Source of the DNA: a virus
Taxonomy: Duplodnaviria > Heunggongvirae > Uroviricota > Caudoviricetes
DNA length: 39,324 nucleotides
Strand: one strand, 5' to 3'
IMG/VR virus record: IMGVR_UViG_2703718821_000011
Every line of letters begins with the position of its first letter. The first letter of the stretch is position 1. The position numbers and the translations under genes were made by a program. The notes beneath the pieces were generated by a model. That model searched no databases and was not told the origin of the DNA. It saw nothing but the letters and a program-made list of their open reading frames with translations. This document shows positions 1-29,025 of this stretch, piece by piece.

Positions 1-305
1 TCATGATGAACCTCGGCTAACAAAGTGTTCGCAAGCAGCTGCAAAGCGATCCAGTCCGGTCGTCACCTCTTCTTCGCTGACATTGAGCGCAGGCGCAAAA
101 CGCACCACGTTGCCACCCGCAATCAGTACCATCACGCCTGCTTTCGCCGCTTCCTGAGAGATCTGTTTCGCTTGCCCGGCGTAATCGGCATTCAGTACAC
201 AGCCAATCAGCAAACCTAAGCCGCGAACTTCACTGAACAAACCATAGCGGTGATTAATAGTATTAAGACGCTCAACAAACCAGTCGTGACGCTGTTTAAC
301 GCCAT
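1..305 (-). CDS. astC: Host succinylornithine/acetylornithine aminotransferase (AstC/ArgD family), 3' terminal ~100 codons only; gene interrupted by prophage insertion
   Basis: Minus-strand translation ends ...[96 protein letters not shown], which I recognise as the AstC C-terminus; similarity stops abruptly near nt 305 where phage-end sequence begins. Exact junction uncertain by a few bp. Confidence 0.7.
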
Positions 306-436
306 TAATATAGCGCGGCGATTTTTTTGATACCGATTTGCATTTCATTTGATACTGCTGAAAAACGCCGATACGCAACTTATTTGATACTAAATCGGCG
401 CTTTTCTTTTGAGTTTTAGAATGAGTTTTTAAGCGC
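306..436. repeat. Prophage right-end terminal region with three direct TTTGATAC repeats, candidate transposase end-binding sites
   Basis: TTTGATAC at ~326-333, ~348-355 and ~383-390, between the host junction and the mom stop codon; Mu-family ends carry multiple spaced transposase binding sites. Terminal dinucleotide could not be fixed. Confidence 0.45.
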
Positions 437-1174
437 TCATTCACTCTCTTTCAAACCAGTTTTAACTGTTTGTGGTTTTGGGTAAGGCTGGACTTTGAAT
501 AGCTTTGTGTTGAGGCGTTTTTTGGCCCTCTTGTTCAGAAACCGGATGTAACGAAACTGTCGGAACTTATGAACATTGGCTCTGTCAATATTAGCCCTCA
601 GATGTTCACCTCGTTGTCCGCCTCGTTTAATGGCATTCCTGCAAATCTCGTGATACCACTCGCCATCAAGTTCATAGAATATTGATTCATGGCTGCCTAC
701 ATAATCAAAATTGCTTGCCTGATACACGACACCAAGACAGCCACAACGCTCATCTGCAAACGACTGAACCCACTGTACCTGCGGATAAAGCTGCCTGATT
801 AGCTTGAGCGCGTAACTGATTGCCCTTGATTCGGAGTTTCTCGGCATACAGTCATGCAGCCATAGCCGGTTAAGCTCCATATATTCTCGGTTCTGCGTAC
901 CCGTTACGACGCGTGCACCACTGTTTGGGTTAAGGGCGTAACCCCATTGCATTACGCCAACAAGTTCCCGTTCTGAAAATATGCCCAGATGAAGGTAGGA
1001 GTTATTTACGAAACGGTGGCTGTAATGTTTATTGACGATGACCAGTCTGGCCAGCCAGCAACTTATTGTCTCAACCCGCAACTCACGGGAGCCATAACCA
1101 ACGATATTGTCGTTATAGCGAATAAGTTCAGGCGTGCTGATGATTCGGGATGTGACTTGCTTTCTGTTCCCCAC
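437..1174 (-). CDS. mom: Mom-like DNA modification protein (anti-restriction); true start may be internal to the ORF
   Basis: 245-aa ORF immediately downstream of and overlapping a Com homolog, last gene before the prophage end, exactly as in Mu. Assignment is by position and com linkage, not by recalled sequence identity. Confidence 0.6.
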
Positions 1175-1328
1175 GACAGGATTTCCTTGTGTATGTGGGG
1201 TGCTCTGTGGCGCTCGGAGATGTGATTTGATTGAGGGTTTTACAGCGCGGACATTTTACTTCCAGATAACTGAAACTGGCCCGTGCCAGTAGCTTATTGC
1301 AGTGTCGGCACCGTATGTTTCGATACAT
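1128..1328 (-). CDS. com: Com, zinc-finger translational activator of mom
   Basis: [30 protein letters not shown]... matches the Mu Com pattern (IRCKNCNKLL...IRCPRCK); overlaps the mom 5' end. ORF is open up to 1373, so a longer N-terminus is possible. Confidence 0.75.
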
Positions 1329-1369
1329 GGCCGCATAACCTCCTGCTTTGTTGTTGATGCCTTTCTCAT

Positions 1370-1550
1370 GCAATCGATCGACAAAAACGATCGATTCGAT
1401 TTGTTTAATTGATACAACAAATAGATTGAAAAGTCATCAACAATGATTCAGGTAGGTGATTATTTACTTAAAGAAAACGAAGAGTTAGGTGGTGAAAACG
1501 ATCATAAAATGATCATTTTATTGACTTTTTATATAGTGAAGGTAGGATCG
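1370..1550 (-). promoter_or_regulatory. Candidate mom operon control region: GATC (Dam) site cluster including a perfect 9-bp inverted repeat AATCGATCG-N7-CGATCGATT
   Basis: GATC at ~1376, ~1389, ~1500, ~1511, ~1546 in an AT-rich stretch just upstream of com. In Mu, Pmom is controlled by Dam methylation of upstream GATC sites (OxyR binding) and by C protein. Confidence 0.45.
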
Positions 1551-1914
1551 CGCGTATATGTAGTATGTTTCAAATCAATGGGATACTACATACATAAAGA
1601 GCGACCCAGATAGCGCGAACTATTCTGGGCCGATTTAGACAATTTTGCATCAATGCTTTACTTCGAGCTCGTGGCGTATCCTATGATATTCCCCAGTCTC
1701 CTGTAAAGCAGAGATGCATAAAAAGGAGATCTTTATCATGGATGAAAGAGCCTGTTTGCCCTGCCTGTAAGACTCCCTTACAGCTCATCTATCGCCGTTC
1801 TCGATCTCAAAATGGCAAGACATACAAACCCAAAAATGCTTCCTGTTTCAGGATGCTGATATGTCCTGCCTGTTCTCCCAGGAGGGAAAATACACAAAAC
1901 GTGCATTAACAAAC

Positions 1915-1940
1915 TCACCCGGCAGGGAAACCTGCCGGTC
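1915..1940 (-). terminator. Hairpin (CCGGCAGG-GAAA-CCTGCCGG) immediately downstream of the 81-aa ORF; possible weak terminator
   Basis: Perfect 8-bp stem with 4-nt loop directly after the stop at 1948; downstream U-tract on the minus-strand RNA is poor, so termination efficiency is doubtful. Confidence 0.3.
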
Positions 1941-1947
1941 GGTATTG

Positions 1948-2193
1948 TTACATCATAGTACCGTCAGTTCCGGGCTGAACCGGCTCTGGTTGCTCTACGG
2001 GTTGAGGATCATTTTCCGTGCTGTTTTCAGCCGGAGAACGGCCAACCATTCGGGCCAGCACTTCATCAACATATGCGTCGATTTGTGCCTCAAAATCCTT
2101 GCGAACCTGCGCCTTCAGCACGCGGTTCACTTCTTCAGAATAAAGTGCCTGTTTGACAAGCTCTTCAGTAACCGTGCCTTTAATCTCTGGCAT
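1948..2193 (-). CDS. Hypothetical acidic 81-aa protein (cargo)
   Basis: Protein-like composition (MPEIKGTVTEELVKQALYSEEVNRVLKAQVRK...), AAGGAG Shine-Dalgarno about 7 nt upstream of the ATG. No recognisable domain. Confidence 0.55.
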   Translation of the reverse strand: MPEIKGTVTEELVKQALYSEEVNRVLKAQVRKDFEAQIDAYVDEVLARMVGRSPAENSTENDPQPVEQPEPVQPGTDGTMM

Positions 2194-2228
2194 GAATATT
2201 CTCCTTTTGCAGGTATATTGCCCCGTTA

Positions 2229-2411
2229 TCAGAGCGGGGTCGGGTCGTTTGGGGATGACGGTGCCTGTGCTGTTTTACTGAGTTTTTCAGCTGCCGCATC
2301 ATCAATTTTACGGCGAATATAATTTCTGATGACCTTATAACCGCCGCTCACCAGATATAACGCACTGACCACAGCGCAGAAATAAAGCAGCATTGTATGA
2401 ACGAATGTCAT
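2229..2411 (-). CDS. Hypothetical 60-aa small membrane protein (one N-terminal TM helix, basic juxtamembrane segment)
   Basis: MTFVHTMLLYFCAVVSALYLVSGGYKVIRNYIRRK...; AAGG-type RBS upstream; located in the cargo block. Confidence 0.5.
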   Translation of the reverse strand: MTFVHTMLLYFCAVVSALYLVSGGYKVIRNYIRRKIDDAAAEKLSKTAQAPSSPNDPTPL

Positions 2412-2523
2412 ATAACCTTACCTTTGATATTGACTACATAATTCGTTATCGGGTAAAAACATCGAAGCGACTGATAACCACTCCTTCGGGAGTATTTTTA
2501 TTTTCCTTTATGGGTTAGGTAGC

Positions 2524-2559
2524 TCCCGCCAGCCATATCATGACCGGCGGGATTTTTTT
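2524..2559 (+). terminator. Rho-independent terminator on the plus strand (GC stem TCCCGCC...GGCGGGA followed by T7)
   Basis: Stem-loop followed by TTTTTTT on the plus strand only; overlaps the stop codon of the minus-strand esterase gene. It would stop rightward transcription entering the esterase gene antisense. Confidence 0.55.
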
Positions 2560-4567
2560 ATTCTGTTACCGCTTTTTTCACTTCCACCACAATGCTGTCA
2601 ATCAGCACCGGGTAAGTTGCATTTTTGGTGATATCCGTTACGCGGAGTTTGTCCACCGGGAAAGTTCCTACTGGTGACTGCGTCAGGGTAAACGCGGCAC
2701 CATCCTGACCATCAATAACCGGAATAACCTGAAGGCTGTTATTTCCTGCAAAACGGAAGGCCAGCGTATGCCATTCATTATCAAATGCACCAAAGGTTCC
2801 CAGTTTCTGGTTATTTGTTGCCACTTTTGCATTGTGGTACATCACATTCAGGTCTTTTGCGTCTGTCTGGATGTAGAACGATGCCAGCAGATTATTCCCT
2901 GCATCCCCTGTCAGGGTGACACCCTGCGGCAGAGAGGAAACCGGCCAGTAAAGCGCCATGACATACTGGTTTGCCACCAGGTCGCCAGGTACTTTAAAAC
3001 GACAACTGATTAAACCACCATTTTTCAGCAGTTCAGCACCAGTACCGGCATCATGAGCCAGATACCAGGATGATTTACCTGTTTCCTTGGTCAGTTTCAT
3101 TGCCTTACCACCTGTGCCTCCTGCATCACTGATAATTTCAGCTTTACCGCCAGCCGGCTCCCAGCCCTGGGCTTTCAGATTTCCTTCTGACTCACTGACA
3201 CGGTAAGACAGCAGTGTTGTGGTTACTGCTTCAGTTTCAGAAGATGGAACATCGGCTTTTACTGTGGTTCGCCCTGCATGAGTCAGAACAGCCGTGGCCA
3301 GACGGTCAGAAATAATACCCCGGCGCGCCCAGGCACTGAAATGGCTGGCCCGGTCCGCAGATGTCCAGGTAGCGGCACTGTTACGCCACGTTGAGCCGTA
3401 ATAACCAATGGATTCAATATCCGGGTCTTCTGCCGGATTGTTGGTGGGTACATTCACGCCATTTTCATCTGTCATTAATGGAACGAAATGAATGTTTTTA
3501 TCTGTTTTGTTTTTGTAGCCGCCATAGATTGCCTGGTATGCTGGTTCATTTTTCTGTTTCCAGAAATACGTGGTATCGCCACAAATCCACGGAACGCCAG
3601 CAGCACTGCCACCGGTACACTGTTCCGCCTGTTCAGCCAGGTCTGCGCGGAATTTTTCCACCATCGCCAGAAACAGCGCAGAATGCTCCGTCGGCTTCGC
3701 ATCAATATCAAACTCGCCCTGCATCCACACCACAGCAAGCAGGCGGTTTTTCGGGTTCTTCGCCAGTGCCGCTTTTGTCCGGCTGATTAAGTCCTTATAC
3801 AGCGGCTTATCCACACCCCAGCGGGCTGAGTCCTCTGAAGCACCCGTGCTGTCACTGTACGTGCCGTCAGCACCCGCCGTGAATGCAGAACCACCACGGC
3901 AGCAGGGAACCAGCAGAATCCCCGCATCTGCCGGAATAAACGGCAGCAGTTTTTTGGCAATGTGAAGCCCCTGACCCACGGTGCCATATTGCCCTTTAGC
4001 CACATCCGCTTTCGGGTGATTTTTTCCACTCATATCCTGCACATCATGCAGACAGTGGTCGGCCAGAATGATGTCGTTATACTGACAGGCTTTACCTCCC
4101 GGCGTGACTGTACTGCGACGGGCTAACTGCATAATACGCGGTTCGGGGCGGTCATATGTCTCCGGCAGTGGCAGACCTTCACCGTAAGCCATACCGTTTG
4201 ACTGACCAGCAAGAACCACCACGTAATACCAGGAAGGGGAGCTGGAAGCAGTTTCATTTCCTGACGGACGGGTATGTGTTTCAGCATTATCCCAGTCTGA
4301 CGGTTCAGCAGTACCGGCAACATCAGCACTTAACGGAATGACCGCACCAATACCCGCTCCGGTAATTTCCACACTCGGATCACCGGATACTGGCCTTACC
4401 CACAGGCAATCCCGTGTATTAAAACTGATGAGACAGTCAGCAAATGTCATTCCTCCTTTTGTTTCGGCCGGAGGAAAGGGAGCCTCAAGAAATGCCGCTG
4501 TACCACCGGAAACTTTAACAGTAAAGTTTCCGGGCATTGATGATAGTTGAACCCATTTGGACGTCAT
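2558..4567 (-). CDS. Cargo protein: SASA/SGNH-family carbohydrate esterase (sialate O-acetylesterase-like) with an N-terminal ~110-aa domain and a C-terminal ~250-aa beta-rich domain
   Basis: Motifs VVVLAGQSNGMAYG (GQSN block with catalytic Ser) and VVWMQGEFD (WxQGExD block) are hallmarks of the SASA esterase family. No obvious signal peptide. Sits between gin and com-mom, where Mu has no gene. Confidence 0.65.
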   Translation of the reverse strand: MTSKWVQLSSMPGNFTVKVSGGTAAFLEAPFPPAETKGGMTFADCLISFNTRDCLWVRPVSGDPSVEITGAGIGAVIPLSADVAGTAEPSDWDNAETHTRPSGNETASSSPSWYYVVVLAGQSNGMAYGEGLPLPETYDRPEPRIMQLARRSTVTPGGKACQYNDIILADHCLHDVQDMSGKNHPKADVAKGQYGTVGQGLHIAKKLLPFIPADAGILLVPCCRGGSAFTAGADGTYSDSTGASEDSARWGVDKPLYKDLISRTKAALAKNPKNRLLAVVWMQGEFDIDAKPTEHSALFLAMVEKFRADLAEQAEQCTGGSAAGVPWICGDTTYFWKQKNEPAYQAIYGGYKNKTDKNIHFVPLMTDENGVNVPTNNPAEDPDIESIGYYGSTWRNSAATWTSADRASHFSAWARRGIISDRLATAVLTHAGRTTVKADVPSSETEAVTTTLLSYRVSESEGNLKAQGWEPAGGKAEIISDAGGTGGKAMKLTKETGKSSWYLAHDAGTGAELLKNGGLISCRFKVPGDLVANQYVMALYWPVSSLPQGVTLTGDAGNNLLASFYIQTDAKDLNVMYHNAKVATNNQKLGTFGAFDNEWHTLAFRFAGNNSLQVIPVIDGQDGAAFTLTQSPVGTFPVDKLRVTDITKNATYPVLIDSIVVEVKKAVTE

Positions 4568-4666
4568 AATAATCAGCCTGTTCCTGAATAAACTGAATTA
4601 TCATATCCACAGACCGATAAACGCCATTTTGCGTTAATTCAGTAAAGGCCCAACAAAGAGAGCGTC

Positions 4667-5227
4667 TTATTTTTCCGAAACGCTCGCAGGATAATAACGA
4701 TAAAGGGTTGAAAGACCGATATCAAAAATAAGTGCCACCTGTCTTCGACTGACACCCCCGGCCAGTAAACGCCCGACCTGCTCGTATTGTTCCTGCGTGA
4801 GACGGCGGGGTCTGCCGCCGGTTCGTCCCCTTTCACGGGCAGCTGCAAGACCAGCCCGTGTCCGTTCGACAATTAATTCACGCTCCATTTCTGCCAGCGC
4901 ACCCATTATGTGAAAAAAGAAGCGCCCCATGGGGGTTGACGTATCAATGTTGTCAGTAAGACTACGAAAATTTATCCCCTGTTGCTGTAATTCATCTGTC
5001 AGCGCAACAAGGTGGCGCATACTGCGCCCCAGCCTGTCCAGTTTCCAGACCATCAGCGTGTCACCGGGTTTTAGTTTCTTCAGTGCCCGCTTCAGTCCCG
5101 GCCGCTGTGTCGTTTTACCACTCATTTTGTCTTCAAAAATCTGCTCACATCCTGCACATTCCAGCGCATTTCTTTGTAAACCGGTGTTCTGGTCATTTGT
5201 TGATACGCGTATATAGCCAATCAGCAT
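4667..5227 (-). CDS. gin: Gin/Hin/Pin-family serine recombinase (DNA invertase)
   Basis: MLIGYIRVSTNDQNTGLQ... N-terminal resolvase/invertase catalytic motif, C-terminal HTH; adjacent to the gix-flanked segment and transcribed away from it, as in Mu. Confidence 0.85.
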   Translation of the reverse strand: MLIGYIRVSTNDQNTGLQRNALECAGCEQIFEDKMSGKTTQRPGLKRALKKLKPGDTLMVWKLDRLGRSMRHLVALTDELQQQGINFRSLTDNIDTSTPMGRFFFHIMGALAEMERELIVERTRAGLAAARERGRTGGRPRRLTQEQYEQVGRLLAGGVSRRQVALIFDIGLSTLYRYYPASVSEK

Positions 5228-5281
5228 GTATTTACCTTCCTTAAAAAGAGGTGGAAAAGCCTTTTAAAGTAGATATACGGC

Positions 5282-5307
5282 ATCCCTGAAACCTCGGTTT
5301 ACGGGAT
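5282..5307. other. gix-like crossover site (left), 26-bp imperfect palindrome ATCCCTGAAACCTCGGTTTACGGGAT
   Basis: Core AAACCTCGGTTTAC matches the Mu gix / Salmonella hix consensus as I recall it (TTCCTGTAAACCGAGGTTTTGGATAA, reverse complement). Confidence 0.6.
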
Positions 5308-5661
5308 ACGGTAAACAGGGCCGCGAATGCCCTGCCATCAAACGGTACGGCTGTTGCAGCAAGCAGGCTGGCAAATGCCCGCAGAATCAATGGTGTCGCC
5401 TTTGACGGCACGCAGGATATAAACATTACGTCAGGAATGCCGGAATCAACGGCCAATCAGCGTTATGTTACAGGGGTAAGACTGGGAGCGCAGGCATTAA
5501 GCGGCGGACTGGAATATAATTACTCCCTGTCATCAGGAAATGTGATTACCGGTTTTAAGACTGACGGAGACTGGGAAATGCGTGGTGGTGATGACCGTGT
5601 TTATTACAGACAGATACAATATTGTATTAATGGGCATTGGGTATCCGCTGCAAGTATTTAA
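5290..5661 (+). CDS. Silent alternative tail-fibre C-terminal cassette (S'v-like), promoterless in this orientation; would fuse to the constant part of S after inversion
   Basis: Plus-strand frame open from the stop at ~5287 encodes NLGLRDTVNRAANALPS...INITSGMPESTANQRYV..., paralogous to the expressed S segment NLGLRETVNKAADALPS...INITSGMTQSTADGRYV.... Confidence 0.55.
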   Translation, partial: NLGLRDTVNRAANALPSNGTAVAASRLANARRINGVAFDGTQDINITSGMPESTANQRYVTGVRLGAQALSGGLEYNYSLSSGNVITGFKTDGDWEMRGGDDRVYYRQIQYCINGHWVSAASI

Positions 5662-5731
5662 TTAACGGGGGCATAGCACACAGCAGCCAGCATCTGAAAT
5701 ATGCGTTATTTCAGACAAGCATTGCCTGTAT

Positions 5732-19502: not shown

Positions 19503-20626
19503 TATTGCATTTCCTCTTTCATTTTCAGGAACTCGGCTTCGGTTTTACCCAGCAGTTTGGCGGCCGCGATATCTTCAGCCGACAGCACAGCGGTGGCAGT
19601 CTTTTTATCCGGCACGGTCACGGTGTCGGTCTGAAGGCCGGTCAGGGCCGCAACCGGCTGGCGGGCGTCAAGCTGTGCAGAAAGTGCCGCCACGCCAATC
19701 TGCCCGCCCAGTTGTTCCAGATAGCCGCGTTCACTTTTGAAGATGCGTCCTTCGGACTCGGCCTTGTCCAGCAACTGCTCCAGCGTGGTGCTGCCGTGCT
19801 GCGCCGACAGCGCAACGTATTCGGTACGCAGGGCGTTATACGTTTCAACGGGCACGTATTTCGTCAGATCAATACTGCCGCCAGCCGGTGTGCCTTTTGC
19901 GGTTTCCAGCTCTGCCGACAGACTGGCGACCTGTGTTTTCAGGTTGTCGTGTGCATCCGCACGGGTTTTGATCCCGGTGAGGGCAGACAGCGCCGCCGTG
20001 CCCAGCTCCGGCGTAAATTCGTCACCGTCAGCCACGGTCAGACCGAGCGCCGTCAGCAACTGGCGTAATTGCTCATTCATGGAGGTATCCTTTAAAGGAG
20101 GGTTTAAGGCGTTATAAAGGTCATCCGCCGACAGTGCGGCGACAGGATTCATGCCGGTCAGACCGGGGTCACCGGTAATAGCCAGCATCCGAAGTTCGAC
20201 AGGTTCGCCGGTGCTCTCGTCATAGCCAATCACCGGTGAAAACCAGGGGAATTCGTTATTACGCAGATGTTCAAGGGCCGGAGGGTTCCACTTCGGGCGC
20301 ACCTCGAAACCTCGCTCTTCACTGAAGCGAAAATTCTCCGGTGAGGCCATCACAAAACCGGCAGCCGGTGCCGGATGTCCCTCAATCAGGGTCTGGTGGT
20401 TGTAGTCAATTTTCACCGGCTGATTGAGCGCCACAACACGGGAGACCATGCGCTCAACGGCTGCATGGTTGATCAGCCAGCCCTCGGCCGGTTTTTCCGG
20501 GCGACCGTCACGGGCCTTTACCCGACCGGCTGGCATGATCTGACACCAGTCACCGTCCCCGTCTGCGGACAGGCTGATGGCATTCAGAATGGCATAAGCA
20601 AGTTTGGGCGTGTTTTTCGTCTTCAT
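19502..20626 (-). CDS. Head maturation protease / scaffold (Mu gp32, I; a nested scaffold Z-like product is possible)
   Basis: 374 aa, Ala-rich coiled-coil C-terminal half, directly upstream of the capsid gene. Confidence 0.75.
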   Translation of the reverse strand: MKTKNTPKLAYAILNAISLSADGDGDWCQIMPAGRVKARDGRPEKPAEGWLINHAAVERMVSRVVALNQPVKIDYNHQTLIEGHPAPAAGFVMASPENFRFSEERGFEVRPKWNPPALEHLRNNEFPWFSPVIGYDESTGEPVELRMLAITGDPGLTGMNPVAALSADDLYNALNPPLKDTSMNEQLRQLLTALGLTVADGDEFTPELGTAALSALTGIKTRADAHDNLKTQVASLSAELETAKGTPAGGSIDLTKYVPVETYNALRTEYVALSAQHGSTTLEQLLDKAESEGRIFKSERGYLEQLGGQIGVAALSAQLDARQPVAALTGLQTDTVTVPDKKTATAVLSAEDIAAAKLLGKTEAEFLKMKEEMQ

Positions 20627-20802
20627 TCCGGCAGCATAGGCCGGGAATTTTCAGGGCGGGTTTTGCGGGATTTCAGGAAGTGCTTTCAGGGGAAAAATAC
20701 AAAGGCGCTTCACGCAGATTTTAAAGCCCGTTAAATTCAGGTTAGAAAATCACGACACGCGCCTGAAGGGGGTAAGGTAATGCATTTGCATACCTTAAAC
20801 AA
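20627..20802 (-). promoter_or_regulatory. Intergenic region upstream of the protease gene with a TAAGGTA-N11-TACCTTA inverted repeat; candidate late (C-dependent) promoter
   Basis: 176-bp non-coding gap in an otherwise tightly packed late region; Mu has a late promoter upstream of I. Confidence 0.3.
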
Positions 20803-26549: not shown

Positions 26550-26840
26550 TTACCCCCTTGCGCGTGGTTTCTTCACACCCGGAACGCTGGCGCGGCCTTC
26601 CGCCACATCCTGCCCCCGGCCGGTCAGTTCCGCGATGAAATAACCGTTAATCAGAACGCGTTTGCGCACCAGTCCCTGCTCGGCAAGCCAGGCAATGTGG
26701 GTGTGAACGGTGTCGCGGGACACGCGGTGGCCGTAATCATCCAGACAGTCCTGGAGCACGGATTCACCCAGTTCACCGTTGTAATCTGCCAGCGACCGCA
26801 GAATGACCAGACGCTGATCTTCAGTAATGAAATTACTCAT
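26550..26840 (-). CDS. Mu gp26-like small protein, possible winged-helix DNA-binding
   Basis: 96 aa; Mu synteny. Confidence 0.45.
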   Translation of the reverse strand: MSNFITEDQRLVILRSLADYNGELGESVLQDCLDDYGHRVSRDTVHTHIAWLAEQGLVRKRVLINGYFIAELTGRGQDVAEGRASVPGVKKPRARG

Positions 26841-27144
26841 TCGTTTTTTTCCTTACCGCCTGCTCCAGCAGCAGTTCGTTCTGATAGGAGACAGAGCGGA
26901 GCGTGGCGTTCGTGGTTTTCAGTTCACCCCGCAGGGTCACGATTTCCACATTCAGACGGTTGACCTCAGCTTCTGTCGGCAGTGACGACAGGCGGGTTTC
27001 CACCTTCTCAACGCGGTCGGAGAGTTTTTCAAAGGCCTCGCGGGGGACAAACGTTTTGCGCATCAGCGCCATGAATATCCCGCCAGCGGTTGCCGTCGCC
27101 GAAAGGATCGGCACAACATAATCTTTAACGATGCTGACCCACAT
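26833..27144 (-). CDS. Mu gp25-like membrane protein (single TM helix plus coiled coil; possible lysis accessory/releasin-like)
   Basis: N-terminal hydrophobic segment VVPILSATATAGGIFMALM followed by coiled-coil-like sequence; lies in the lysis-proximal block. Confidence 0.4.
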   Translation of the reverse strand: MWVSIVKDYVVPILSATATAGGIFMALMRKTFVPREAFEKLSDRVEKVETRLSSLPTEAEVNRLNVEIVTLRGELKTTNATLRSVSYQNELLLEQAVRKKTNE

Positions 27145-28027: not shown

Positions 28028-28528
28028 TCAGACTTTCGGCAAGTCGTAGCGACATAACCATTCATCCGCCGAACGGCGGGCCTCAAGGCCGGGGAGTTTC
28101 ACCCCCTTTGAATAAATCCAGCGGATATACTGCTTACAGGACGCGGGCATCTGCCCGGCATTGATCAGGCGCAGAAGCGTGGAGTTGCGGAAGTTCGTTT
28201 CACCGGCCCAGAAGATCCACGAAGCCAGCGCCACAGTCTGACCACGGGTAAGCGGCACCTGAACACGCCGATCAATGGCCGCAAAGGCCCATTTCATGTC
28301 CTTTTCCAGTAGTTCCAGGCATTCTTCATCCGTCAGGGTCATACCCGGTTTCACATCCGGGCCGGTATGGCCGTAACAGATGGTGGGTGTACCGGTGGGA
28401 TCGATATACGTGGAGTTTTCTTTCCCTTCCCAGTAACCGGTGTAATGCGTGGCAATCGTGAACGTCCCGGCACCGGCCAGAACAAGGGCAATCAGCTTTT
28501 TACGCAGTGGTGCGGGGAGTTTTGGCAT
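28028..28528 (-). CDS. lys: SAR endolysin, T4-lysozyme-like (glycoside hydrolase family 24)
   Basis: Gly/Ala-rich weakly hydrophobic N-terminal segment (LIALVLAGAGTFTIA) followed by YWEGKE...TICYGHTG lysozyme-type motifs. Confidence 0.8.
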   Translation of the reverse strand: MPKLPAPLRKKLIALVLAGAGTFTIATHYTGYWEGKENSTYIDPTGTPTICYGHTGPDVKPGMTLTDEECLELLEKDMKWAFAAIDRRVQVPLTRGQTVALASWIFWAGETNFRNSTLLRLINAGQMPASCKQYIRWIYSKGVKLPGLEARRSADEWLCRYDLPKV

Positions 28529-28599
28529 TGTTACGCTGTCTCATGATGTTCTCTGAGTCAGCGTAACGGTGAAGGAAAGGCGGCAGGCTTTGCGGAATA

Positions 28600-29025
28600 T
28601 CAGAAAAGTGGCGGTTGCGTTCTTGCCAGATGCAGACGGCGCTGTTCACGTATGACGGTATAAATCTGGGTTTCTGACATCCGGTAATGGCGGCGAAGGG
28701 ATTCAATTTTCTCGCCCCGGTCCCAGCGCGAAAATATCTCATTGTTTCGCAGCTCGGCAAAGAGAGATTCCCCGACCGGCAGGTAATAACCCCGTCCGCC
28801 CATATAGGCTGCCTGAGCCGCAGCCACCTTGCGTGCCAGTTTACCGGCCAGTACCGGCTCAATCCCCTGACGCTGAAGTTCTGCGCCGGTGACTTCAACC
28901 AGTTCTGACAGGGTCCGCGGCCAGTTCTTTTTGAGAACATCATCAGGGATGTCATCAAGGCGGTCGATAAGGGCGTGCAGTTGCTCACTGTCACCACCAA
29001 ACATGCTCATCTGAGTTTCTGCCAT
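28600..29025 (-). CDS. Mor/C-family transcriptional activator (middle/late gene activator)
   Basis: C-terminal ...RMSETQIYTVIREQRRL... resembles the Mor/C HTH region; sits immediately upstream of lys where Mu has C. Cannot tell whether this is the Mor or the C equivalent. Confidence 0.65.
   Translation of the reverse strand: MAETQMSMFGGDSEQLHALIDRLDDIPDDVLKKNWPRTLSELVEVTGAELQRQGIEPVLAGKLARKVAAAQAAYMGGRGYYLPVGESLFAELRNNEIFSRWDRGEKIESLRRHYRMSETQIYTVIREQRRLHLARTQPPLF

What the first reader, a model, noticed from the sequence alone, without database searches (positions are those of the whole stretch)
1948..2411. Two small cargo ORFs downstream of the esterase: 60-aa membrane peptide and 81-aa acidic protein
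Both have good ribosome-binding sites and protein-like composition and are not Mu genes. The 60-aa product has one TM helix followed by a basic segment, a layout seen in small membrane toxins and lysis or immunity peptides. The 81-aa product is strongly acidic at its C-terminus. Together with the esterase they form a three-gene block foreign to the Mu backbone, which could be an accessory operon or a small toxin-partner pair.
Basis: partly seen in the sequence, partly recalled or inferred. Interest (0 to 1): 0.6.

Follow-up and report, generated by a model that had tools for sequence, protein, structure and literature searches.

The report
Known phage DUF1378/DUF826 gene pair
The two small genes are real and conserved, but they are the already catalogued DUF1378/DUF826 pair that follows the nanS-p esterase in Shiga-toxin phages, here carried by a Mu-like prophage, and their gene neighbourhoods suggest a helper role in phage lysis, not a toxin-antitoxin pair.

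Summary
Both ORFs exist on the minus strand: 2229-2411 (60 aa) and 1948-2193 (81 aa). They match Pfam DUF1378 (E 1e-38) and DUF826 (E 3e-15). They are identical to RefSeq WP_000144787.1 and WP_001114104.1 and are under purifying selection.

They are absent from Mu, which has about 95 bp between gin and com. In 88 surveyed loci the order nanS-p, DUF1378, DUF826 is kept on two backbones. One is Sp18-type Mu-like prophages; the other is lambdoid/Stx phages, where the trio sits just upstream of the pinholin S.

No toxin-antitoxin or defence family matches, and DUF1378 is almost absent from plasmids.

Distant DUF1378 members (Klebsiella, Pantoea, Erwinia and others) are the last gene of cassettes ordered pinholin, lysozyme with a SAR-like N-terminus, spanin. 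Their ATG usually overlaps the spanin stop codon. Those loci have no nanS-p and no DUF826.

In the Mu-like lineage, nanS-p is preceded by a motif shared with the prophage's own lys and I late-promoter regions.

Best reading, function inferred: a late-expressed, lysis-associated membrane-tethered protein with an acidic helical partner. They were co-opted together with nanS-p. The families are known, their function is unknown, and interest is moderate to low.

The parts
2229..2411 (-). DUF1378 gene (60 aa). Predicted single-pass membrane protein, N-terminus out and C-terminus in, with a basic juxtamembrane helix and a short disordered tail.
   Evidence: Pfam PF07125, E=1.2e-38 over the full length. 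phrog_494. Identical to WP_000144787.1. AF2 gives one helix at residues 2-49. Hydropathy and charge. dN/dS.
1948..2193 (-). DUF826 gene (81 aa). Acidic cytoplasmic protein with a long helix and a Pro/Glu-rich disordered tail that ends in a conserved ...D(G/S)xMM motif.
   Evidence: Pfam PF05696, E=2.8e-15. phrog_311. Identical to WP_001114104.1. AF2 gives helices at 10-17 and 20-50 (pLDDT above 90) and a disordered tail. Alignment. Directly downstream of DUF1378 in 72 of 73 informative loci; the exception is an IS insertion.
2558..4567 (-). nanS-p-like esterase gene (669 aa; SASA esterase domain plus DUF6645). First gene of the block.
   Evidence: Pfam SASA and DUF6645. 80% identical over residues 100-668 to yjhS/nanS-p of an Stx2a phage.
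4600..4641 (-). Late-promoter-like element upstream of nanS-p: TGAATTAACGCAAA, 22 nt, then TATGAT.
   Evidence: The same motif and spacing occur upstream of lys (28589-28602) and the I-protease gene (20662-20675). The motif is kept upstream of nanS-p in all Mu-like loci. A pattern built only from the lys and I sites hits L008 once, upstream of nanS-p, against 0.02 expected. In the window itself the match has 3 mismatches and is not significant alone.
2524..2552 (-). 13-bp GC-rich hairpin immediately after the nanS-p stop codon. It is preceded by an A-run and has no U-tract after it.
   Evidence: Fold of 2412-2562, z = -3.2. The position is kept in all lineages with different stem sequences.
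1905..1938 (-). Terminator-like hairpin (CCGGCAGG/CCTGCCGG plus a U-rich tail) after the DUF826 stop. It lies between convergent genes and probably marks the 3' end of the block.
   Evidence: Fold of 1880-1950, z = -4.4. Sequence.
1443..1909 (+). Convergent, frameshifted hypothetical ORF region in a variable slot between DUF826 and com. Not part of the conserved trio.
   Evidence: PGAP pseudogene in L001 and L004. Other Mu-like variants carry unrelated 86-97 aa ORFs at this position. GC content is 40%.
4667..5227 (-). gin invertase gene. Left boundary of the insertion relative to Mu.
   Evidence: 74.5% nucleotide identity to Mu gin. Annotated as a recombinase family protein.
437..1328 (-). com (1128-1328) and mom (437-1174). 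Right boundary of the insertion relative to Mu.
   Evidence: Pfam Zn_ribbon_Com and Mom. 71% nucleotide identity to Mu mom.

Best explanation
Shown:
- The two ORFs are members of the phage families DUF1378 and DUF826. DUF1378 is a 60-aa single-pass membrane protein predicted to be N-out/C-in. DUF826 is an 81-aa acidic helical protein with a disordered tail.
- Together with a nanS-p-type sialate O-acetylesterase they form a conserved three-gene module.
- The module occupies the gin-com gap of Sp18-type Mu-like prophages of E. coli.
- The same module sits directly upstream of the pinholin S in lambdoid/Stx phages, where DUF1378 is 933W gene L0106 and DUF826 is the next ORF.

Inferred:
- In the Mu-like prophage, the module is transcribed late in lytic growth from a Mu-type promoter upstream of nanS-p, probably dependent on the late activator C. 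In Stx phages it is part of the Q-dependent late transcript.
- DUF1378 is at root a lysis-cassette accessory gene. In Klebsiella, Pantoea, Erwinia and Mangrovibacter phages it is the last gene of cassettes ordered pinholin, lysozyme, Rz/Rz1. It is translationally coupled to the spanin gene there.
- The most likely mechanism: its transmembrane helix and cytoplasmic helix modulate the inner-membrane step of lysis. That step would be SAR-endolysin release or the timing of membrane depolarisation.
- DUF826, found only in E. coli, Shigella and Citrobacter phages, would be a cytoplasmic partner that docks on DUF1378's basic juxtamembrane helix.
- The pair would therefore tune when cytoplasmic cargo such as NanS-p, and Stx in Stx phages, is released.
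- It is not a toxin-antitoxin pair.
For: Identity:
- Pfam and PHROG matches.
- RefSeq annotation of identical proteins.
- Purifying selection.

Module:
- The order nanS-p, DUF1378, DUF826 is kept in 32 Mu-like and 56 lambdoid loci.
- The same order is annotated in Stx2a phage LC567818, followed by the holin.
- PMC10462455 notes DUF826 and DUF1378 ORFs between nanS-p and S.
- Two divergent E. coli Mu-like prophages checked by hand also carry the trio.
- DUF826 always follows DUF1378.

Lysis link:
- In 32 IMG/VR loci with distant DUF1378 genes, which still pass the Pfam gathering score, a spanin gene lies directly upstream.
- In 26 of those 32 loci the DUF1378 ATG overlaps the spanin stop codon as ATGA.
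- 27 of 32 have a P21/HP1-type holin hit and 29 of 32 a lysozyme hit.
- Phage BUCT709 has the same layout.
- A P2-like contig has holin, lysozyme, Rz/Rz1, nanS-p, DUF1378.

Late expression:
- The motif and -10 spacing are shared with the prophage's lys and I upstream regions and resemble Mu Plys and PI.

Topology and charge:
-.
- The DUF1378 layout parallels that described for the Mu releasin gp25: N-out, C-in, membrane-tethered cytoplasmic domain.
Against: - No experiment or published function exists for either family.
- In this window the pair is about 24 kb from the prophage's own lysis genes.
- This prophage already has a Mu-type lysis set without a holin: a lysozyme with a SAR-like N-terminus, an Rz1-like spanin and a DUF2730 releasin homologue. 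A pinholin-specific role therefore cannot explain why the pair is retained here.
- Gene position next to a lysis cassette is also typical of unrelated morons such as bor.
- There is no sequence similarity to the releasin (hhalign probability 0.4%).
- In the E. coli clade, linkage to nanS-p is as complete as linkage to lysis genes.
- The promoter motif in the window itself has 3 mismatches to the lys/I consensus.
- A strong hairpin plus a weak terminator-like site lies between nanS-p and DUF1378, so co-transcription is unproven.
Confidence: 0.4

Rival explanations
1. The pair serves NanS-p. DUF1378 and DUF826 would help the signal-less esterase work, for example by holding it at the membrane or aiding its release. 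That would explain why they travel with nanS-p into any backbone.
For: In the E. coli-type clade, nanS-p lies directly upstream of DUF1378 in every locus that has upstream sequence, apart from the truncated Cedecea copy L017. This holds on Mu-like, lambdoid and P2-like backbones. The pair stays under purifying selection in Mu-like prophages, where no lysis gene is adjacent.
Against: 32 loci with distant DUF1378 genes, and phage BUCT709, have no nanS-p. The Mu-like NanS-p has a different N-terminal 100 aa from the lambdoid one, which carries DUF1737, yet the small genes are kept. nanS-p and the small genes have discordant similarities (80% versus 53% and 38% to the Stx2a phage), which indicates independent recombination histories.
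Confidence: 0.2
2. The pair is a small membrane toxin with an acidic antidote, or a superinfection-exclusion or abortive-infection moron expressed from the prophage.
For: The pair consists of a basic single-pass membrane peptide followed 35 nt later by an acidic protein. The block has a lower GC content than the prophage, 48% versus 54%.
Against: There are no PADLOC, Pfam or NCBIfam toxin-antitoxin or defence matches. Only 15 of 72,556 plasmid records carry DUF1378. The family has just 30 cluster representatives among 1.84 billion and all contexts examined are phage. DUF1378 occurs without DUF826 in more than 30 loci. It is translationally coupled to Rz in late operons. No sigma-70 promoter-like site was found directly upstream of the pair.
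Confidence: 0.1
3. DUF1378 is itself a holin-class protein, either a second holin or an antiholin specific to the S21-type pinholin, and DUF826 is its regulator.
For: It is small, has one transmembrane domain and a charged C-terminus. It sits beside P21- or HP1-family holin genes in most contexts. The transmembrane domain has conserved small residues in LYLxSGGY.
Against: It is retained under purifying selection in Mu-like prophages, where I found no holin family next to lys and which carry the holin-less Mu lysis gene set. It lies after the spanin genes, not next to the holin, in the distant clade.
Confidence: 0.12
4. The ORFs are decaying hitch-hikers with no function, or are not genes at all.
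For: No function is known. The C-terminal tails evolve almost neutrally, with pooled pN/pS of 0.82 for the DUF1378 tail.
Against: The N-terminal parts have dN/dS of 0.07-0.19 at dS 0.3-1.4. Reading frames are intact in 91 and 86 copies respectively. Profile matches are strong. The antisense ORF is not conserved.
Confidence: 0.03

Closest known systems
Block nanS-p (L0105), L0106 (DUF1378) and the following DUF826 ORF, upstream of holin S in Stx phages such as 933W and Stx2a phages
   Same: Same three families in the same order and with similar spacing. A conserved hairpin follows nanS-p. Function is unknown there too.
   Different: Here the block sits in a transposable Mu-like prophage between gin and com. 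It is not between stx/Q and the pinholin. The small proteins are only 53% and 38% identical to the Stx2a-phage versions. NanS-p lacks the DUF1737 N-terminus. A Mu-type late-promoter-like motif takes the place of the Q/pR' context.
Long-form DUF1378 proteins (80-91 aa) at the end of lysis cassettes (pinholin, lysozyme, Rz/Rz1) in Klebsiella, Raoultella, Pantoea, Mangrovibacter and Erwinia prophages
   Same: Same Pfam family, with the shared N-terminal transmembrane helix and (S/A)GG(Y/W)xxIR motif.
   Different: The long forms have an Ala/Glu/Lys-rich helical tail. They have no DUF826 partner and no nanS-p, and their ATG overlaps the spanin stop codon. Similarity of that tail to DUF826 is weak (hhalign probability 10%).
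Mu releasin gp25 (DUF2730)
   Same: Small type I membrane protein (N-out, C-in) with almost no periplasmic part and a cytoplasmic domain, encoded close to a SAR endolysin. DUF1378 has the same predicted layout, and its distant members lie within a few genes of lysozymes with SAR-like N-termini.
   Different: No detectable homology. The window's prophage already carries its own DUF2730 gene at 26833-27144. The DUF1378 cytoplasmic segment is basic, whereas that of gp25 is anionic. The acidic part would have to be supplied by DUF826, which is speculation.
Type II toxin-antitoxin pairs and small membrane toxins
   Same: Two small adjacent genes, one a hydrophobic basic peptide and one acidic.
   Different: No family match, a phage-late-operon context, near absence from plasmids, and frequent occurrence of DUF1378 alone.

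Membership tests
Pfam DUF1378 (PF07125) | Profile match above the gathering score over the full ~59-residue model | tested here: met
   131.5 bits against a cut-off of 25; residues 1-59 match model positions 1-59.
Pfam DUF826 (PF05696) | Profile match above the gathering score | tested here: met
   56.7 bits against a cut-off of 25; residues 1-52. Full-length match to phrog_311 at E=6.6e-30.
nanS-p / DUF1378 / DUF826 module of Stx and lambdoid phages | Gene order esterase, DUF1378, DUF826 on one strand with short gaps | tested here: met
   Window 4567 down to 1948 on the minus strand. The same order occurs in 88 loci.
nanS-p / DUF1378 / DUF826 module of Stx and lambdoid phages | Location in the Q-dependent late operon, immediately upstream of pinholin S | tested here: not met
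   In the window the block lies between gin and com/mom of a Mu-like prophage, and no holin is adjacent.
Type II toxin-antitoxin pair | Homology of either partner to a known toxin or antitoxin family | tested here: not met
   No such match in Pfam, NCBIfam or PADLOC.
Type II toxin-antitoxin pair | The two genes occur as an obligate pair, widely spread on plasmids and chromosomes | tested here: not met
   DUF1378 occurs without DUF826 in 32 loci plus L006 and L088. Only 15 of 72,556 plasmid records carry it.
Type II toxin-antitoxin pair | Toxicity of one product that is neutralised by the other | not testable with these tools
   Needs controlled expression experiments.
Holin / antiholin | Small protein with at least one transmembrane domain and a charged C-terminus | tested here: met
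   Transmembrane stretch at residues 3-21, then 5 K/R in the next 16 residues. Helix at residues 2-49.
Holin / antiholin | Encoded next to the endolysin in the lysis cassette | tested here: not met
   In the window, lys is at 28028-28528, about 24 kb away. The feature is met only in relatives.
Holin / antiholin | Lethal, energy-poison-triggerable membrane permeabilisation | not testable with these tools
   Needs an expression assay with DNP or cyanide.
Releasin (DUF2730, Mu gp25) | Sequence membership in DUF2730 | tested here: not met
   hhalign probability 0.4% against the window's own DUF2730 protein. No Pfam DUF2730 match.
Releasin (DUF2730, Mu gp25) | N-out/C-in single transmembrane domain with a cytoplasmic domain | tested here: inconclusive
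   The positive-inside rule predicts this topology, as described for gp25. No experimental topology exists.
Releasin (DUF2730, Mu gp25) | Required for release of a SAR endolysin | not testable with these tools
   Needs complementation of Mu 25::cam, or co-expression with a SAR endolysin.
Mu-type late (C-dependent) promoter upstream of the block | Conserved activator-site sequence about 22-23 nt upstream of a TAnnnT -10 hexamer, with no -35, shared with Plys and PI | tested here: inconclusive
   The motif and spacing are shared with the lys and I upstream regions. The match is significant in variant L008: 1 hit against 0.02 expected. In the window the match has 3 mismatches. C dependence was not tested.

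The most novel reading that the evidence does not exclude
DUF1378, helped in E. coli phages by DUF826, is a new class of lysis regulator. It would be a membrane-tethered factor that works like the Mu releasin without being related to it. It would control SAR-endolysin release or membrane depolarisation, and so set the timing of release of phage, Shiga toxin and NanS-p esterase. DUF826 would supply in trans the anionic cytoplasmic domain that gp25 carries in cis.
Probability: 0.2. Interest if true: 0.65.

Novelty: new member of a known kind. Interest (0 to 1): 0.33.

Why it matters
These two genes lie between stx/nanS-p and the lysis genes of essentially every Stx phage surveyed, and no function has been assigned to them. 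If they tune lysis timing, they would influence how much Shiga toxin and esterase an induced EHEC cell releases. They would also add a component to the pinholin/SAR-endolysin pathway.

The same block has been kept, under selection, in a holin-less Mu-like prophage. This gives a natural genetic background for separating a pinholin-dependent role from a role that depends on the endolysin or on NanS-p.

As it stands, the finding is an instance of annotated DUF families in a known prophage type (Sp18-like). It is not a new system.

Tried and rejected
- **Apparent DUF826 fusion.** phrog_8301 and 'head completion protein' annotations suggested a fusion. They come from over-called ORFs that start in another frame inside DUF1378.
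- **DUF826 as the split-off tail of long-form DUF1378.** hhalign probability is only 10% (2% for the tail alone). Short DUF1378 forms also exist without DUF826, so this is kept only as a weak lead.
- **DUF826 versus DUF2560.** DUF2560 is the 81-aa gene after DUF1378 in Klebsiella-type loci. No similarity was found.
- **DUF1378 versus the releasin.** No similarity.
- **Solved structures.** No match for either family. I skipped a fold search because each model is essentially one helix plus disorder.
- **Rfam scan of 1-5400.** Nothing found.
- **Mu C-box TTAT-N6-ATAA.** Absent from the window.
- **Literature searches.** Searches for L0106/L0107, ECs/Z locus tags, and nanS-p together with Mu-like gave nothing relevant. 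The DUF1378 mention in the ArdC paper refers to PF08401 and is evidently a slip for DUF1738.
- **GTDB genome scan.** It returned a single truncated Cedecea copy.
- **Source strain.** The window's exact insertion site is not among the complete E. coli genomes, so the strain could not be named.

Full report
**Observation**

The window's left end holds a host gene on the minus strand (ORF 1-444). It is followed by the right end of a Mu-like prophage in reverse orientation. The order is mom (437-1174), com (1128-1328), a plus-strand frameshifted ORF region (1443-1909), an 81-aa ORF (1948-2193, minus), a 60-aa ORF (2229-2411, minus), a 669-aa esterase gene (2558-4567, minus) and gin (4667-5227, minus).

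Both small ORFs have Shine-Dalgarno-like sequences. The 60-aa product has one hydrophobic helix at residues 3-21. It is followed by a basic stretch with 5 K/R in 16 residues, and the pI is 9.3. The 81-aa product is acidic (pI 4.3) with a Pro/Glu-rich tail. The description in the finding is therefore accurate.

**Are they genes?**

Yes.
- They match Pfam DUF1378 (131.5 bits, E 1.2e-38) and DUF826 (56.7 bits, E 2.8e-15), and PHROGs 494 and 311.
- PGAP annotates identical proteins (WP_000144787.1, WP_001114104.1) in a genome that is 99.9% identical over this region.
- I compared 33 and 39 distinct gene sequences by Nei-Gojobori.
  - The conserved N-terminal parts give dN/dS of 0.07-0.19 (DUF1378 residues 1-45) and 0.10-0.15 (DUF826 residues 1-50) at dS of about 0.3-1.4.
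  - The DUF1378 tail is nearly neutral.
- The 153-aa plus-strand ORF antisense to both genes is interrupted in relatives.

**Relation to Mu**

In Mu, gin and com are separated by about 95 bp that hold Pmom. In this window only mom (71%) and gin (74.5%) align to Mu DNA. The roughly 3.3 kb between them is extra. The prophage is of the Sp18/Phi804-3 type known from EHEC. It is about 39 kb and is inserted at a different site in each strain.
- 233 of 5426 complete E. coli genomes carry this com-mom.
- 167 genomes carry the whole 1380-4700 stretch at DNA level.
- Two divergent versions checked by hand also have the trio.

**The block elsewhere**

Stx2a phage LC567818 has stx2AB, yjhS/nanS-p, a 59-aa ORF, an 81-aa ORF and then the holin. 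The window's proteins are 80%, 53% and 38% identical to these three. In 933W the DUF1378 gene is L0106. A 2023 paper notes DUF826 and DUF1378 ORFs between nanS-p and S and assigns them no function.

I ran a tblastn panel on 90 loci retrieved through DUF1378.
- 32 Mu-like loci have [gin or none], nanS-p, DUF1378, DUF826, then com and mom.
- 56 lambdoid loci have nanS-p, DUF1378, DUF826, a P21-type pinholin and a lysozyme.
- Retrieval through DUF826 gives the converse: DUF1378 is directly upstream in 72 of 73 informative loci. The one exception is an IS insertion into DUF1378.

**Contexts that break the trio**

- A P2-like contig (L088) has a holin-like gene, lysozyme, Rz/Rz1, nanS-p and DUF1378, followed by tail genes. 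It has no DUF826.
- Phage BUCT709 (L006) has an unannotated P21-type pinholin, a lysozyme with a SAR-like N-terminus, Rz/Rz1 and then a 50-aa DUF1378 whose ATG overlaps the Rz stop. It has neither nanS-p nor DUF826.
- An exhaustive profile search found only 30 cluster representatives among 1.84 billion proteins, so the family is small.
- The distant members are 53-91 aa and come from Klebsiella/Raoultella, Pantoea, Mangrovibacter and Erwinia. They still pass the Pfam threshold.
- In 32 IMG/VR loci with these distant members, a spanin gene lies directly upstream.
  - In 26 of the 32, the ATG overlaps the spanin stop as ATGA.
  - 29 have a recognisable lysozyme and 27 a P21- or HP1-type holin.
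  - None has nanS-p or DUF826.

Across the family, DUF1378 is therefore a terminal gene of pinholin/lysozyme/spanin cassettes. The sampled lysozymes have SAR-like N-termini. The nanS-p linkage and the DUF826 partner are specific to the E. coli/Citrobacter clade.

**Expression in the Mu-like prophage (inferred)**

The sequence upstream of nanS-p is TGAATTAACGCAAA, 22 nt, then TATGAT. It has the same architecture as the regions upstream of the prophage's lys gene (TGATATTCCGCAAA, 23 nt, TACGCT) and I-protease gene (TGAAATCCCGCAAA, 23 nt, TATGCT). These correspond to Mu's C-dependent Plys and PI, which contain CCCGCAC and CCCGCAAA.
- All Mu-like loci keep the motif and spacing upstream of nanS-p while the spacer sequence diverges.
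- A pattern built only from the lys and I sites hits variant L008 once in 12 kb, exactly there, against 0.02 expected.
- In the window itself the match has 3 mismatches and is not significant alone.
- A 13-bp hairpin without a U-tract follows nanS-p, and a weak terminator-like site follows that. Read-through to the small genes is therefore plausible but unproven.
- A GC hairpin with a U-rich tail follows DUF826.

**Structure**

AF2 gives DUF1378 as one helix (residues 2-49) plus a disordered tail. It gives DUF826 as helices at 10-17 and 20-50 (pLDDT above 90) plus a disordered tail. DUF826 tails vary in length but usually end in D(G/S)xMM(M/L). Neither family has a solved-structure relative.

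**Interpretation**

The toxin-antitoxin idea finds no support.

The best-supported reading is that these are late-expressed accessory genes of the lysis and release module.
- DUF1378 would act at the inner membrane.
- DUF826 would be its cytoplasmic partner in E. coli phages.
- Both would have been carried into the Mu-like phage together with nanS-p and placed under a Mu-type late promoter.

The prophage has its own Mu-type lysis set: a C/Mor activator, a lysozyme with a SAR-like N-terminus, an Rz1-like spanin and a DUF2730 releasin homologue. I found no holin family among these genes, and Mu itself is reported to lack a holin. Continued selection on DUF1378 here argues against a strictly pinholin-specific role. 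It leaves the SAR endolysin, the membrane itself or NanS-p as possible targets.

The predicted layout of DUF1378 parallels that of the releasin gp25, but there is no homology. The mechanism is inference from gene context and topology. I put it at about 0.4. A NanS-p helper role is the main rival, at about 0.2.

**Verdict**

The genes belong to catalogued DUF families in a known module and a known prophage type. Novelty is low and interest moderate to low. The useful new point is the family-wide coupling of DUF1378 to spanin genes in lysis cassettes, which gives a testable function for ORFs present in nearly all Stx phages.

Noticed in passing
window 4600-4641, 20625-20675, 28528-28602 (minus strand): A shared motif TGAwwTnmCGCAAA, followed 22-23 nt later by TAyGnT, lies upstream of nanS-p, the I-protease gene and lys. 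It is probably this phage's C-dependent late-promoter signature. A one-mismatch copy lies at 5700-5713, next to the invertible tail-fibre segment.
   Followed up: partly
window 2524-2552; also L002, L008, L013, L047, L088 just after nanS-p: An A-run followed by a GC-rich hairpin sits right after the nanS-p stop in every lineage. The stem sequences differ but pairing is preserved. On the opposite strand it reads as a canonical terminator (hairpin plus T-run). A second plus-strand terminator-like site is at 2480-2503. Its purpose is unknown; it could act as an antisense barrier or an mRNA 3' stabiliser.
   Followed up: partly
window 1380-1947: An AT-rich (40% GC) variable slot lies between DUF826 and com. 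Here it holds a plus-strand frameshifted ORF (1443-1613 and 1742-1909), the second part with two CxxC pairs. Other Mu-like variants carry unrelated 86-97 aa ORFs at this position (L008 6641-6934, L145 6159-6419).
   Followed up: partly
window 1372-1396: A GATC-containing palindrome, AATCGATCGACAAAAACGATCGATT, lies about 45 nt upstream of the com ATG. It recalls the GATC cluster upstream of Mu Pmom but lies much closer to com than in Mu. The mom promoter layout here must therefore differ from Mu.
   Followed up: no
window 2558-4567 compared with L002 and L008: The NanS-p of the Mu-like prophage lacks the DUF1737 N-terminal domain of lambdoid NanS-p and has an unrelated ~100-aa N-terminus. Its core is closer to an Stx2a-phage NanS-p (80%) than to NanS-p of other Mu-like variants (~66%). 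This implies recombination between Mu-like and lambdoid copies.
   Followed up: partly
L008-L011, L146: Some Sp18-type Mu-like prophages have no gin. In these, nanS-p directly follows a tail-fibre assembly gene on the opposite strand.
   Followed up: no
L006 (OM816835) 2721-2936 and 3697-3891: Stenotrophomonas phage BUCT709 has an unannotated P21-type pinholin gene and an embedded Rz1-like lipoprotein ORF. Its DUF1378 is 61% identical to the E. coli Mu-like one, which is surprisingly close for a Stenotrophomonas phage.
   Followed up: partly
L005 4107-4511, L007 4221-4511; phrog_8301: DUF826 genes are annotated as 'head completion protein' in some phage records. The cause is an over-long ORF call that starts inside DUF1378 in another frame. 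phrog_8301 probably reflects the same artefact.
   Followed up: yes
L207 1-1200: An IS3-family element is inserted into DUF1378 in one lambdoid contig, leaving DUF826, the holin and the lysozyme intact.
   Followed up: yes
alignment A3 (DUF826), C-terminus: The acidic linker varies widely in length, yet most DUF826 proteins end in a conserved ...(P)D(G/S)xMM(M/L) tip. This suggests a short C-terminal interaction or degradation motif. Citrobacter-type members end in TILP.
   Followed up: no
L109 6325-6570 and similar Klebsiella-type loci: In the distant clade, the gene after DUF1378 is another small protein of unknown function, DUF2560 (81 aa). It is unrelated to DUF826.
   Followed up: partly
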